Source: Mobula hypostoma
Lineage: Eukaryota
Direction of reading: 5' to 3'
Assembly (NCBI RefSeq): GCF_963921235.1
Contig: NC_086101.1
Span: 30,008,001 to 30,072,000 of the forward strand
Length of the DNA stretch: 64,000 nucleotides
The translations under genes and the position numbers were made by a program. Below the pieces are notes generated by a model, which was given only the letters and a program-made list of their open reading frames with translations, did not search any database and was not told the origin of the DNA. This document shows, one piece after another, positions 9,452 to 17,525 of this stretch. Positions within the stretch are counted from its first letter, which is position 1; the number at the start of each line of letters is the position of its first letter.

Positions 9452-12050
9452 ATGGGACTGCCAGTAATCTTACAGGTAGAGAACGTATTCTATCCTTTTC
9501 TCGCAGTCATTGGGGTTCCCGGTAAGACGTTTAAACAAACCTAGCGCGTTTCTTTCTTTAGGAACTTTAGATGTTTCCATTTTAACTTGGTGTGTTTTAT
9601 TTGCAAACAATATTATCTAGTTTTAGTGCGTTCAGAACGTTCCAAATTTCTACCAATATTAAAAATAACAGTCTCAGAGCTATGCAGAGAAAATTAAGTA
9701 GAGGCTGAGCTTATTTAGTGCAATTGTCACGGACAAATACTTTTCTAAAATTTTAGGTAATATGCATTTTGGCATTGTAACACAACCGCAGATGACAGTG
9801 TTTTTAGTTTTACCGATACAAGGTTAATGGGAACAAATGAAAATAATAAAATGTTTGTCGGCATCTCGTTTAACCAGTGCTATGTGATTGTCTAAATTAA
9901 TTTAAGGTCACCCACGCAAACCTCTGATTACCTTGTAGTAATGAAATCCCTCCGACCCAGTCGGCATGAAGCTTTCTGCTAAACAGAAGCTTTTAATATA
10001 CAACCTAATGTGATTGATCCGGGAATAGTGCGACTGCTGCTACTTACGTTGCAAACCGCGGAATAAATTGGAGCTTTAACTCATATGTTTTGATCATGTC
10101 CTTTGTTGAAAAAATATTAGAAAGATATTTTTCATATTCTCTCAACTGTTTTGAATATTGACTTACAACCTCACGCAATTACTGCCATTTTTGGGTTACC
10201 AATGATAGAATCAAGTGATTTGCACTTTTAAGGTCGCTTTCTAGACAAGAATGCATGAAGGGCCTAATAGAACTCGAGAAGTAGTTATTGAGATACTGTG
10301 AATGTCTATTTCTATTTTCTACGCTTCTTCTGTAAGGTGCTACCTGGGATTCCAACGCAAAATTACAGTCTATAGTATTGGCTGAAATATATAGTATTTC
10401 AACATTTTGAAGATTCAGAGAATCTGTAAGACTTTGCTTTGGAGGAATATGAGACTAGTTCAAAGAATCAATTCAGACATTACTGAATAGCAGACCAGGA
10501 ATAAAAGGTGGAATGGCCTCTTCGTGTTCAATTTTGCACGTTTTTCGGCAAAATAAAACAGAATCCAATGCCACAATACAGGAAAGATAGAGTAAACCCG
10601 GCATCTTCAAGGAATCTCCGTTAGTGAGAGTCACGTAGCAGCCTACCATTTTACTGTCCTCGAAATGAGTTTCCCAGAGATAATTCGACAATGCAGGGTT
10701 CAGTTGCGTATTCTGCAATGGGCTATGTTTACTATTTTCCCTATTACTTGAGCTGTAATTATTCCCAATTGCACGTATGTAATATTGGGCAGATCCTAAC
10801 ATTGTCTATCATTAAGGATGGATTCGCCAGGGTAGCTTTGATTAGTTTCTCGTGAAATTCAGTGATGAGGTGTCAGTGCCTGCATGCTTCATTTTCATTA
10901 CGTAAAGCTCACCGCCCACCGGAAAACGCAAACCATAAACCAGTAGAACGCTGCCAAGCAAAGACTCAACTGTTTTAAAATAATTACTTGAATCAACGAA
11001 ACATTAATTTTCATTTCCACTCAACATCAACTGGATTGTGTCAGAGAGCAAGTGCAATGGAGTAGGAAAGTAAAAATAGCAATTTTAAGCAAAAACAAAC
11101 GTAAGTAAATATTAATTTGCTTTAATCTTTTCATAGCTAATTTGCTCGCAATCATCATTTTCTCCCGTGGAAACTGTGGTCTCTCGAAATGCATCACTCG
11201 TTACCTGGTGGGCATGGCGATGGGCGATCTAATGGTCCTGATAACTGAAGTAATTCTTTATGAGATTGTAGACGGCTACTTCCCATATTCCGTTTTCAAT
11301 CATACTCCGTTTTGCAGATGGAATCTTGTCGTGCACTTCATCTCAATTGACTGCTCTGTCTGGTTGACCGTGGCTTTTACCTTTGATCGATTTGCTGCTA
11401 TTTGTTACGAGTCGCTGAGAACGAATTACTGCACTGAAAGGACAGCAGCTATTGTGATAGCGGTCGTGTGTTCCTTGAGTATTTTGGAAAATGCTCCATT
11501 CTATCTTATATATGAACCACGAGAAATAATTGACAACATACAGTGGTCCTGCTATGTAAAATCAAGTTTTTACACTTCGCCCATATGGGTGGCATTTTTG
11601 TGGTTAGAAACTCTCATGACAACAATTTCCCCTTTTGTGCTAATCTTGCTGCTGAATTCTTTAACTATCAGACATATTATCCAGGCAAACAGACTCAGGA
11701 GTGGACTTCGTGGAAATAATCAGTTTAAGAAGGACACTGATTCGGAGGTGGACAACCGAAGAAAATCAATAATTTTGCTTCTCGCTATTTCAGGCACTTT
11801 TATTCTCTTATGGATGGTCATTTTCATATGTTACCTATATGTGCAATTTAGTGACACACAATTTCTAGAAGCAAGTTACAACGATCCTTTCACTATAGCG
11901 GAGCAAAGTGGGTATATGCTGAGGTGTTTGAGTTGTTGCACGAACACTTTTATATATGCAGTGTCCCAGAGGAAATTTAGAGAAGAATTAAAAGATTTGA
12001 TTATGACTCCCTTCCGTCTTATTTCCAACATTATCAGAGAATATAAATAG
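9452..12050 (+). CDS. GPR139-like class A GPCR, gene 1; exons 9452-9521 and 11137-12050; 327 aa
   Basis: Exon 1 MGLPVILQVENVFYPFLAVIGVP ends CCCG|GTAAG. Phase-1 intron ends TTTTCATAG|CTAAT and restores GVPANLL. Seven hydrophobic segments, TM2 Asp, C3.25, FDRF, ECL2 Cys, NTFIY, helix-8 RKFREEL. No frameshifts or stops. Confidence 0.93.
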
Positions 12051-14502: not shown

Positions 14503-14509
14503 GAGGCCC

Positions 14510-17324
14510 TAACCCGTCAGCCTAGGGGTGCCGCGGATAAAAGGTGGTACAAGCAGCAGTAATCAGATTGTTCAAAATATGAAGAAAGAACAGGAAATAG
14601 TTATTTAGATTGTCTGATCGATATCGGTCCCACCAAATCCTCTGTCCACCACCACCACCACCATCACCCCCCATCCCGCGGACATCTTCGTGAATGATAA
14701 TAACTCCTGACACCATTGGAATAGCCAGTATTTCCATGACAGAGCCTATCTCCACACCAGCCTCTGTACAGGTGGAGATAGGTTTTCAACAGGCACCTTA
14801 ATTATATCTTAAACAGCCCCGCTTCCCCTACCGGGTCGACGGACCATTTGAAAATTAGGACAATACTGATAGTACGGCTGAAATCTCCCCAAATTAGCGC
14901 CCCACGGATGCTACAATTAATCAACGGGCCAGAAAAGGTAAGAAGAAACACCGCCCATATTATACGTTGGCAACCAGTTGGCAATCCCTTATGCTTGGCA
15001 GTTCGAGAAAATGTATGACACATTGATAGGACAAGCCAACCTCTGTAAGCAATATTTGCAATATTTGATTACTACCAGCCGAGGAAAGAAGAAGCTGCAC
15101 TGCACGGTACTTTGCAAACTGACCCGCTCCATGATCAAGCTGTACTCCCTTAACTGCATGATAAAGAAAAGCTGAAGGCAACACCATATGCGTATTTTGG
15201 TACTGAGAGATTGGAGGTCCTGGTGGACTTAGTGGAAATCAGGAAGAAAGATTCCGACTAGGGGACTCCTCAGTGCTCCATTTGACAGTGTCCGTAAAAC
15301 CACCAGCAAAAGGTAAAGATATCGGGACGATGATAAAGCGATTGGTGAAAGAAACGAAGACTGTTTGTGTGATAACACTGCCCGTATTGGGACAAGAAGT
15401 GCGAATAGAATTATTTAATGAGAGGAAGTGGAAGATTATGCTAAAGTCCGAGATCTGGGAAACAACCTTCTAAAATCAACATCCACCAGTAACAGATCCT
15501 TTATTTCTCCCTGGAGCTTTAGCGCGGGTAGCAGCTAATTTACGGGCACAAAATTAATACCTGCTCCGGAGCATAAAGTTACTCTAAAAAAGAATGTGCC
15601 ACAGCCCTGCATTAAACAGTAGTGTATAGCTACTGAAGCGGAAAAGGTATCGTTCCAGTAATGGACTCATTATTGCAGCAAGGGAGGCTGGTGAAGACAC
15701 AAAGCCTGTGTAGCACCCCTACATTACGTATCTAAAAAGCAGGCCGAGACAATGAGTGGCGTTTTGTGCAGGACCTGAGAGTCATTCTAAATTAGTCCTG
15801 CCTATCGCTCAGCTTGTGCCTGACACCAACATTATACTTAGTTCTATGAACTTGCTGGGGCAGCCAAACTTCTCCATAAGTAGCAGCAGAGAAGGCTTGT
15901 GGAAGATCATGGAGAAGTTTGGCTGCCCCAGCAAGTTCATCACAATCGTCCGGCAGTTCCACGACGGTATGATGGTGAAAGTTCTGGATGACGGCGACGA
16001 GTCGGAGGCCTTCCCAGTGACAAATGGCGTCAAACAAGGCTGCGTTCTTGCCCCGACTCTGTTCAGTATGGTATTCTCTGCCATGCTGACAGATGCCTTC
16101 CGTAACTACGAAGAAGGAATCCACGTCAGGTACAGGACTGACGGCAGGTTGTTCAACCTTAGGCGCCTGCAGGCAGCTACAAAGGTGCAAGAGACTGTCA
16201 TCAGAGACTTCTTGTTTGCTGATGACTGCGCACTCAACGCCAGCACAGAGCATGAGATGCAGCGTGAAATGGACTGCTTCTCACAAGCCTGCGACAGCTT
16301 CGGTCTCACTATCAGCACCAAAAAGACCGTAGTTATGTACCAGCCTGCCCCAGGAAAGCGATACCAGGAGCCGCGCATCATGGTGAAGGGCCAGAACCTC
16401 CAGGCAGTCGACAACTTCACCTACCTGGGCAGCATACTCTCTCGCGCAGTGAACATAGACGCTGAAGTCAACAACAGGATTGCCAAAGCCAGCGCTGCCT
16501 TTGGGAGACTCCGTGAGAACGTCTGGGAGCGGAGAGGACTCAGCCTTACCACCAAGCTGAAGGTCTACTGTGCAGTGGTCCTTACCACCCTCCTTTACGC
16601 CAGCGAGACCTGGACTGTCTACAGCGGACACGCCAAACAGCTCAACCACTTTCACCTGAGCTGTCTCCGCAGACTCCTCCACATCAGGTGGCAGGACAAA
16701 GTCCCCGACATGGAAATCCTGGAACGAGCAGGGCTCTGCAGCGTCTACACCCTCCTGCTGAAAGCCCAAGCCAGGTGGGCTTGACCTGTGGTCAGAATGC
16801 CAGACAGCCGATTGCCTAAGCAGCTGCTTTACGGAGAACTGTGTCAGGCAAGCGCTCAGTCGGGGGCAGAAGAAACGTTACAAAGACTGCCTCAAAGCGT
16901 CCCTCAAATGCCTGGGTGTCGACATCAACACGTGGGAGACGCTTGCCCTCGACCGTCCAGCTTGGCGCAGCAAGATCACCACAGGAGCCCGTGCTGCTGA
17001 AGTCAGGCGCATCATCGAGGCGCAACGAAAGCGTGCTGTGCGCAAGGCCCGAGCAGCATCCACTGCCACGACAGCACCCACCCACTTGTGTCCCACATGT
17101 GGGCGAGCCTTCAGGGCCCGGATTGGCCTCATCAGTCACCTCCGGACCCACAGACACCATTTGACTTTGAAGCCATGGTCATCTTCGACTACGAAGGACG
17201 AACAGCAGCAGCAACTTAGTTCTATACCTATGGAAGCTAGTAAGAAGCTAGTTATCGATCTGAGTTCAGCACTTCCCGCGTTCTGCTGCCGAAGCAGAGC
17301 CAGTATTTATTTGCATTTACTTAT
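14510..17324 (+). pseudogene. Endogenous retrovirus pol fragment (class I, epsilon/gamma-like): protease, candidate 2H domain, RT N-terminus; split by the RTE insertion; no LTRs seen
   Basis: CLIDIGPTKSSV (decayed DTGA) at 14611-14646. RT reads EAEK(G)IVPVMDSLLQQG..TP..KAGRDNEWRFVQDLR..LVPDTNIILSS, and after the RTE continues IPMEASKKLVIDLSSA..SQYLFAFTY to 17324. Many stops and frameshifts. Confidence 0.88.
15848..17213 (+). mobile_element. 5'-truncated RTE (BovB-like) LINE with RT C-terminal half and C2H2 zinc finger
   Basis: GVKQGCVLAPTLF, LFADD, YLGS, CPTCGRAFRARIGLISHLRTH. 3' stem-loop CTTCG-ACTA-CGAAG and (CAG)n tail. 12-bp TSD ACTTAGTTCTAT at 15836-15847 and 17214-17225. One stop (16782-16784) and one frameshift near 16848. 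Confidence 0.95.
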
Positions 17325-17525
17325 ACCACAATCAGCTGTGGAGGCCAGGTCGTACGGTGTATTTAAATCAGAGCTTGATAGGTTTTTGATTGGACACCGC
17401 ATCAAAAGTTATGGGGAGAAGGCGGGGAAGTGGGGTTGAGGAAAGGAAAGAAAAAGATCAGCCATAATTGAATAGCGCGGCAGATTCGATGGACCAAATG
17501 GCCTAATTCTGCTCCTATGTCTTAA
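17325..17525 (+). mobile_element. CR1 3' end fragment
   Basis: PQSAVEARSYGVFKSELDRFL..GEKAGKWG followed by a CR1-type 3'UTR. Confidence 0.8.

What the first reader, a model, noticed from the sequence alone, without database searches (positions are those of the whole stretch)
14978..15473. Endogenous retrovirus with a candidate 2H-phosphoesterase domain between protease and RT
Seen: about 700 bp separates the end of the protease-like region (about 14860) from the RT start (about 15580). It carries two HxT motifs in 2H-like context, LHCTV (His codon 15098) and FRLGDSSVLHLTVSV..KDIGTMIK (His codon 15279), about 60 codons apart across frameshifts. Known: paired HxT/S motifs define the 2H superfamily, and viral members (coronavirus NS2, rotavirus VP3 C-terminus) destroy 2-5A to block OAS-RNase L. 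From memory, a 2H insert has been noted in some fish retroviral Pol proteins. Inference: a chondrichthyan retroviral lineage with a Pol-embedded nuclease against oligonucleotide second messengers or cyclic phosphates.
Basis: partly seen in the sequence, partly recalled or inferred. Interest (0 to 1): 0.75.

Follow-up and report, generated by a model that had tools for sequence, protein, structure and literature searches.

The report
CNPase-like domain in fish retrovirus Pol
A broken fragment of an ancient retrovirus in a fish genome carries, between its protease and reverse transcriptase, a conserved domain predicted to fold like the host enzyme CNPase, which likely trimmed cyclic-phosphate RNA ends; such domains are already reported in fish retroviruses, and I found no test of what they do.

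Summary
Observation confirmed. Both HxT motifs lie where stated, in different frames, in a ~1.5-kb dead ERV fragment (gag end, protease, spacer, RT start) split by a LINE. The motif pair alone is weak (10 of 182 window tiles have one), but the spacer is a real domain. It has a natural sawshark homologue (E 1e-20), occurs in at least seven ERV lineages of this genome, keeps His/Thr in 22-27 of 26-30 loci, and shows dN/dS below 1. A model of the homologue matches CNPase/RICH (Z 10.8-12) and fungal tRNA-ligase CPDase (7.8) far better than the 2-5A enzymes VP3 (5.7), NS2 (4.5) and AKAP7 (4.0-4.3). So the 2H call holds, but the 2-5A analogy is the wrong branch. Best reading: a virion-packaged 2',3'-cyclic-phosphate phosphodiesterase acting on RNA ends (function inferred, about 0.5). 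Two CNPase pocket residues differ, so a changed substrate stays open. Not new: reviews cite 2H/CNPase domains in fish retroviruses, and this scan noted the same thing five times on other DNA.

The parts
14506..14525 (+). Last codons of gag with the TAG that precedes pro-pol (read-through junction inferred from recalled gamma/epsilon-retrovirus layout)
   Evidence: Homology to other copies starts at 14506; TAG 14523-14525; a longer copy has a CCHC zinc knuckle just upstream (L021, E 4e-4)
14526..14900 (+). Decayed retroviral protease; active-site triad reads DIG here (14620-14628), DTG in another copy
   Evidence: the equivalent position in a second ERV lineage hits Pfam RVP, E 5e-9
14908..15490 (+). 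CNPase-like 2H phosphoesterase domain, broken by frameshifts and stops (end approximate)
   Evidence: Aligned span 14908-15443 to copy L002; homologue P0002 E 1.1e-20; fold matches
15098..15109 (+). First HxT motif (HCTV)
   Evidence: host CNP has LHCTT
15279..15290 (+). Second HxT motif (HLTV)
   Evidence: aligns to host CNP SHITL (weak: probability 19%, E 0.0012)
15491..15847 (+). Linker and N-terminal part of reverse transcriptase, broken
   Evidence: RT of the homologue is closest to MLV-type RTs, E 1e-51
15848..17225 (+). 5'-truncated LINE inserted into RT, with 12-bp target-site duplication (15836-15847, 17214-17225) and a 32-bp inverted 5' piece; RTE type is my recalled label
   Evidence: RVT_1 E 1e-15; C2H2 finger E 6e-4
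17226..17340 (+). Remainder of the retroviral RT after the LINE; the element ends here
   Evidence: Matches in 7 of 8 long copies

Best explanation
The spacer is the broken remnant of a two-histidine phosphoesterase domain predicted to have the CNPase fold, which in the ancestral virus likely opened 2',3'-cyclic phosphates on RNA ends. Shown: the domain lies between protease and RT of an LTR-gag-pol-env retrovirus family, is shared by several ERV lineages and was kept under selection. Predicted: CNPase fold, including the helix after the second motif. Inferred: it was made as part of Gag-Pol, cut out by the viral protease, packaged with RT, and hydrolysed 2',3'-cyclic phosphate to 2'-phosphate plus 3'-OH, as CNPase and the tRNA-ligase CPDase do. 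The likely benefit is healing or de-marking RNA ends left by host endoribonucleases (primer tRNA, nicked genomic RNA). It was probably captured long ago from a CNP-like host gene. This copy is dead. My odds: 2H/CNPase fold 0.95; cyclic-phosphate hydrolysis as main activity 0.65; RNA-end healing as the role about 0.45.
For: Fold: the Atlas model of P0002 90-280 matches CNPase best (TM 0.72, 175 aligned; next-best 0.57). My AlphaFold2 model (20-row alignment without CNPase, pLDDT 65, pTM 0.60) gives only CNPase/RICH entries among the Foldseek rows shown for ranks 1-50 (best E 7.5e-7); VIA Z 10.8, rmsd 4.0, 175 aligned against 5.7 for the next of 48,161 chains; RICH Z 12.0 and fungal RNA kinase/CPDase 6u05 Z 7.8. 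Helix 138-155 starts 11 residues after the second His, where CNPase has its family-specific helix alpha7 (PMC4643303 passages). Conservation in the top 30 of 72 similarity-picked loci: His 22/27, Thr 23/26, His 27/30, Thr 27/30, aromatic at the Phe235-equivalent site 24/27, median column 20%; Gly at the Gly324-equivalent site 19/27. Selection: window copy vs L002 dN/dS 0.40 in frame, 0.94 and 0.92 in shifted frames; between sub-lineages of a younger family 0.17-0.26. Rat CNPase can replace the Trl1 phosphodiesterase in yeast (as stated in PMC3290555).
Against: No activity was measured. The folded protein is the sawshark homologue (37-38% identical to family copy L002), not the window copy; L002 folded alone failed (pLDDT 31). 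Sequence profiles do not see CNPase: 0 of 20 rows hit PF05881, while 4 of 20 weakly hit Acb1 (best E 0.0014) and 1 hit 2_5_RNA_ligase2; phmmer and a profile search found nothing in the PDB. Pocket differences: Lys (23/29) at the Val321 position, no Arg307 equivalent, Tyr168 register unclear. In shifted-frame controls of three other copies dN/dS was 0.64-0.88 against 0.50-0.55 in frame, a smaller gap, and the RT control in this family was noisy (0.43-2.2). Whether RT can extend a 2'-phosphorylated 3'-OH end is unknown to me. The host has OAS genes, so 2-5A exists as a possible target.
Confidence: 0.5

Rival explanations
1. A CNPase-derived domain retargeted to destroy an immune second messenger (2'3'-cGAMP or another cyclic dinucleotide), delivered with the incoming core.
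For: Weak Acb1 profile hits in 4 of 20 rows, all below cut-off where shown; conserved Lys where CNPase has base-stacking Val321 could bind a second phosphate (inference); 2H enzymes of this kind exist in poxvirus and phage (PDB titles 9bkq, 7t27); cGAS-STING in all jawed fish and DNA made by RT as its trigger (recalled).
Against: Structural scores to the penguinpox cGAMP PDE (Z 4.3) and Acb1 (3.9-4.9) are far below CNPase (10.8-12); helix alpha7 is proposed to limit substrate size (PMC4643303).
Confidence: 0.17
2. A 2',5'-phosphodiesterase that degrades 2-5A and blocks OAS-RNase L, like NS2 and VP3.
For: Host OAS cluster present (11 matches, three gene-like groups on C78); the pathway functions in a chimaera (PMC10400998); rotavirus VP3 is the second hit of the wide search (Z 5.7).
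Against: Known viral 2-5A PDEs descend from AKAP7-like genes (PMC10835031 abstract; no mention of retrovirus or CNP in its text); NS2 Z 4.5, AKAP18 Z 4.0-4.3; walleye retroviruses carry a matching fold although ray-finned fish lost OAS-RNase L.
Confidence: 0.12
3. A non-enzymatic decoy or binding module that offsets host CNP, an interferon-induced blocker of retroviral assembly, or binds RNA or tubulin.
For: CNP1 blocks HIV-1 particle assembly through Gag (PMC10761555 passages).
Against: That activity maps to Asp72 in the N-terminal domain and to C-terminal prenylation, parts the viral domain lacks; catalytic His/Thr are among the best-kept columns.
Confidence: 0.08
4. Appr>p (ADP-ribose 1'',2''-cyclic phosphate) hydrolase working in ADP-ribose turnover, as plant CPDase does.
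For: Some fish ERVs also carry macro domains (PMC4977317); 2H enzymes are discussed in this role (PMC9503650).
Against: Arabidopsis CPDase scores Z 4.2-4.5; alpha7 is said to separate CNPases from such enzymes; no macro domain among 39 scanned stretches.
Confidence: 0.08
5. The spacer is a meaningless linker and the motifs are chance.
For: 10 of 182 window tiles hold a loose motif pair; no Pfam hit for the window pieces.
Against: Conserved across lineages at about 11-36% identity; two independent models give one fold; dN/dS below 1.
Confidence: 0.02

Closest known systems
Vertebrate CNPase / fish RICH catalytic domain (PDB 2xmi, 1woj, 2i3e; Pfam PF05881)
   Same: Predicted fold over about 175 residues; two HxT motifs; aromatic five residues after the first His; helix after the second motif; Gly fifteen residues after the second His.
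   Different: 14-19% identity; below Pfam detection; motif spacing 61-63 residues in most uninterrupted rows versus 79 (His230-His309); Lys for Val321, no Arg307; no N-terminal kinase-like domain or prenylation tail; embedded in Pol.
2H/CNPase domains of fish retroviruses (Mazumder et al. 2002 and Basta et al. 2009, neither held; seen only as cited in PMC9503650 section 21 and PMC4977317)
   Same: A 2H or CNPase domain in epsilon-like fish retroviruses; my model's three hits with E<0.001 in BFVD are WEHV1 Q9WHI8, WDSV A4GTG3 and Q2VF30.
   Different: Host is a cartilaginous fish (inferred). The two walleye hits are labelled Envelope polyprotein, whereas here the domain is between protease and RT. 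[quoted passage not shown]
Fungal tRNA ligase Trl1 cyclic phosphodiesterase (PDB 6u05; Pfam PF08302)
   Same: Second-best structural family (Z 7.8, 152 aligned); top Atlas feature hits carry PF08302 (scores 0.85-0.86, leads only); heals RNA>p ends.
   Different: No ligase or kinase partner in the virus.
Viral 2',5'-phosphodiesterases NS2, NS4b, rotavirus VP3-CTD (AKAP7-derived)
   Same: 2H superfamily, paired HxT motifs, captured host enzyme in an animal virus.
   Different: Different branch; Z 4.5-5.7 versus 10.8.

Membership tests
2H phosphoesterase superfamily | Two HxT/S motifs, each followed by a hydrophobic strand | tested here: met
   (all four residues in 12 of 20 family copies)
2H phosphoesterase superfamily | Bilobed 2H fold | tested here: met
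   On the natural homologue P0002; the window copy itself was not folded
2H phosphoesterase superfamily | Phosphoesterase activity | not testable with these tools
   No assay
CNPase clade | Best structural match is CNPase, well above other 2H families | tested here: met
   Z 10.8 vs 5.7; TM 0.72
CNPase clade | Helix alpha7 after the beta5 loop | tested here: met
   Model helix 138-155, starting 11 residues after His127; block pLDDT 52-72, so moderate; feature defined in PMC4643303
CNPase clade | Base-stacking aromatic at Phe235 | tested here: met
   Tyr in 24 of 27 loci; Phe in lineage G and host CNP; register by offset from the His
CNPase clade | Val321 and Arg307 in the pocket | tested here: not met
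   Lys in 23 of 29 at His+12; Arg in 0 of 30 at His-2; host CNP has both
CNPase clade | Tyr168 under the ribose | tested here: inconclusive
   An invariant Tyr (18 of 18) is nearby, but the aligned range (model 18 = chain 167) would put it one residue off if ungapped
CNPase clade | Pfam PF05881 match | tested here: not met
   0 of 20 rows; the genome scan found only the host gene, 6 matches on C91
AKAP7-derived viral 2',5'-PDE (NS2/VP3) | Closest relative is AKAP7/eukaryotic LigT type | tested here: not met
   Listed but far lower: VP3 Z 5.7, NS2 4.5, AKAP18 4.0-4.3 vs CNPase 10.8
AKAP7-derived viral 2',5'-PDE (NS2/VP3) | Cleaves 2-5A | not testable with these tools
   No assay
Class I (gamma/epsilon-like) endogenous retrovirus | LTR-gag-pro-pol-env layout | tested here: met
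   In other copies of the family: TG..CA LTR pair, zf-CCHC, RVT_1, RNase_H, rve, TLV_coat; the window holds only a fragment
Class I (gamma/epsilon-like) endogenous retrovirus | RT closest to MLV-type RT | tested here: met
   P0002: E 1e-51 to MLV-type, 3e-32 to foamy-type, 1e-12 to HIV-1
Epsilonretrovirus-like clade | RT groups with WDSV/SSSV/ZFERV on a tree | not tested
   No named fish retrovirus sequences were retrievable; the tree holds only this genome's copies and P0002

The most novel reading that the evidence does not exclude
Fish retroviruses captured the CNPase catalytic domain, remodelled its pocket (Lys for Val321, no Arg307) and package it in the virion, in Pol in some lineages and in Env in others, to destroy a nucleotide immune messenger such as cGAMP or 2-5A: a retrovirus-encoded second-messenger nuclease, evolved apart from the AKAP7-derived and Acb1-like ones.
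Probability: 0.25. Interest if true: 0.75.

Novelty: new member of a known kind. Interest (0 to 1): 0.33.

Why it matters
Retroviral Pol rarely carries extra enzymes. A CNPase-like domain kept by many fish retroviral lineages points to a step in retroviral replication or host conflict that is not understood. The physiological substrate of CNPase itself is still open (PMC3290555 abstract), so a viral version is an independent handle on it. This locus adds little by itself: it is a broken fragment, the domain class is in print, and the scan has noted it five times.

Tried and rejected
Pfam scans of window pieces, single copies and P0002 gave no 2H family. Two word-index protein searches with ERV pieces found nothing and a third found only P0002 itself; the full HMMER library gave 1 hit. 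No related locus in viral contigs. No PDB sequence match. Single-sequence fold of copy L002 failed. RNase L: PF06479 gave 2 exons that read like IRE1 by my recall, so its presence in this genome is unresolved. RT and domain trees recover the same shallow lineages but leave deep nodes open, so they do not show single origin or co-descent. Rows of alignment A1 were partly chosen for having both motifs, so motif counts were taken instead from similarity-picked loci. An LHCT string in the protease end of many copies is not part of the domain; the homologue reads IYCT there. Literature: ten full-text searches, six of them aimed at retroviral 2H/CNPase, found only the two reviews and no functional test; the primary papers (Mazumder 2002, Basta 2009, Schwer 2008 and a 2024 poxvirus PDE paper) are not held, and no supplements were read, so a prior description in sharks or an assay may exist unseen.

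Full report
Observation. Both motifs are present at the stated codons, 181 nt apart and in different frames. They lie in a retroviral fragment that starts at 14506 with the last gag codons and a TAG, runs through a decayed protease, the spacer and about 100 codons of RT, is interrupted at 15848-17225 by a LINE with a 12-bp target-site duplication, and ends near 17340. Upstream lies a decayed LINE endonuclease piece. No other part of this ERV family was found in the window against 8 long copies. The motif pair alone is weak evidence: 19 of 2000 shuffles and 10 of 182 window tiles have a loose pair.

The family. A DNA search of the own genome gave 51 matches from 40 scored of 56 candidates, at 70-83% identity apart from the window itself and one 39-bp piece (a lower bound). 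Among the top 20 loci the first His is kept in 17, the first Thr in 15, the second His in 18, the second Thr in 19, and all four in 12; such close copies keep most residues anyway, so this is not evidence of selection. Longer copies show an LTR pair (308 of 378 aligned bases identical), a zinc knuckle, RT, RNase H, integrase and an Env TM match, so this is a true, old retrovirus. The RT of the homologue is closest to MLV-type RTs, which makes it class I; epsilon-like placement was not tested.

Homologues. A full HMMER search with one copy's spacer returned a single protein, P0002 (E 1.1e-20, 38% identity), named by its source as an uncharacterized sawshark protein. It has protease end, spacer and RT in one frame, with motifs HCT and HLT. 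Searches of the own genome with this domain and with a second lineage gave 72 and 73 matches that fall, by identity and tree, into at least seven lineages, about 11-36% identical between lineages for long rows. In a younger lineage the order protease, domain, RT is seen in one reading frame. In the top 30 of the 72 loci the motif residues are kept in 22 of 27, 23 of 26, 27 of 30 and 27 of 30, against a median of 20% over 142 columns (the median is lowered by out-of-frame stretches, and loci were picked by similarity). dN/dS was 0.40 for the window copy against L002 (0.94 and 0.92 in shifted frames), 0.37-0.70 for 19 family copies, 0.17-0.26 between sub-lineages of the younger family (RT 0.10-0.13) and 0.23-0.38 between sub-lineages of a third. 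Controls were weaker for three other copies (0.64-0.88 shifted), and the RT control in the window's family was noisy.

Fold. The Atlas model of P0002 90-280 matches CNPase best (TM 0.72). My model from a 20-row alignment holding no CNPase (pLDDT 65) gives CNPase/RICH in every Foldseek row shown for ranks 1-50. In the wide search CNPase scores Z 10.8 (rmsd 4.0, 175 aligned), then rotavirus VP3 5.7, NS2 4.5, penguinpox cGAMP PDE 4.3, AKAP18 4.0-4.3, plant CPDase 4.2, Acb1 3.9. The second look gives RICH 12.0 and fungal RNA kinase/CPDase 7.8. Against viral models the three hits with E<0.001 are WEHV1 and WDSV proteins labelled Envelope polyprotein and Q2VF30; the matched range was not shown. Against this: no row hits the Pfam CNPase model, 4 of 20 weakly hit Acb1, and a single-sequence fold failed.

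Pocket. In CNPase the base sits between Phe235 and Val321, Tyr168 contacts the ribose, Arg307 tunes the loop, and helix alpha7 is specific to the clade (PMC4643303 and PMC3290555, passages). By offset from the histidines, the viral domain keeps an aromatic at the Phe235 site (24 of 27), the Gly324 site (19 of 27) and a helix at the alpha7 position, but has Lys at the Val321 site (23 of 29) and no Arg307 (0 of 30). The host CNP gene keeps Phe, Val and Arg. So it works like a CNPase-branch enzyme but is not a plain CNPase.

Mechanism. Most likely (about 0.5 overall) the domain was made in Gag-Pol, released by the protease, carried in the virion, and opened 2',3'-cyclic phosphates on RNA ends left by host nucleases; these steps are inferred. 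CNPase can do this job in yeast tRNA splicing (as stated in PMC3290555). The 2-5A idea is weaker: known viral 2-5A enzymes are AKAP7-derived (PMC10835031, abstract), and walleye viruses carry the fold although ray-finned fish lost OAS-RNase L (PMC10400998, passages). It is not excluded here, because this host has OAS genes; RNase L was not identified. A cGAMP-type target rests on the weak Acb1 hits and the changed pocket. A decoy role against antiviral CNP fits poorly, as that activity needs parts the virus lacks (PMC10761555, passages).

Prior knowledge. PMC9503650 section 21 (read whole) lists 2H domains in a fish retrovirus and WDSV, citing Mazumder 2002. PMC4977317 (passages) reports CNPase ORFs in epsilon-like ERVs of ray-finned fish, citing Basta 2009. 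Neither primary paper is held. The elephant-shark ERV paper PMC4422223 has no mention of such a domain in a term search. Six targeted searches found no functional test. This scan holds five earlier notes with the same reading, two in this genome; I saw them after the Atlas result of the same turn and before my own fold, and they are not independent support. They call the host a ray, which I did not test.

Verdict. A real, conserved CNPase-like domain in a dead ERV fragment; new member of a known kind; function untested. Interest 0.33.

Noticed in passing
BFVD hits Q9WHI8 and A4GTG3: The walleye-virus proteins that match the domain model are labelled Envelope polyprotein, so the domain may sit in Env there and in Pol here. 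If so, the common need may be packaging inside the virion. Matched range not shown.
   Followed up: no
L003, L005, L010, L013, L018; L022, L023, L025: 5 of 10 aligned family copies share one identical frame-breaking deletion between the motifs, and several LTR-bounded copies of about 6.8 kb have a short gag side. This suggests a defective subfamily that spread in trans, or repeated slippage at a short repeat.
   Followed up: partly
L105-L112 (G000 C96, C67, C40, C91, C12, C50, C75, C18): A second, younger and distant ERV lineage (YVDD-type RT, domain 11-23% identical to the others) has the same protease-2H-RT order.
   Followed up: partly
window 15836-17225: LINE inserted in the ERV RT, with a 12-bp target-site duplication and a 32-bp inverted 5' piece typical of twin priming (label recalled); its RT frame is open for over 300 codons.
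   Followed up: yes
L029-L034 (G000 C91): The host CNP gene appears twice within about 190 kb with near-identical exons, and in one set the exon order differs; a local duplication or an assembly artefact.
   Followed up: no
L097-L104 (G000 C78): A cluster of three OAS-like genes; RNase L not identified by the Pfam scan.
   Followed up: partly
window 11109-12050: Intronless 313-codon ORF with a rhodopsin-family 7TM match (E 3e-23), 2.5 kb upstream; no link to the ERV seen.
   Followed up: no
L025:1520-1799: A second, near-identical copy of part of the spacer lies 2.86 kb upstream, outside the 5' LTR of that provirus.
   Followed up: no
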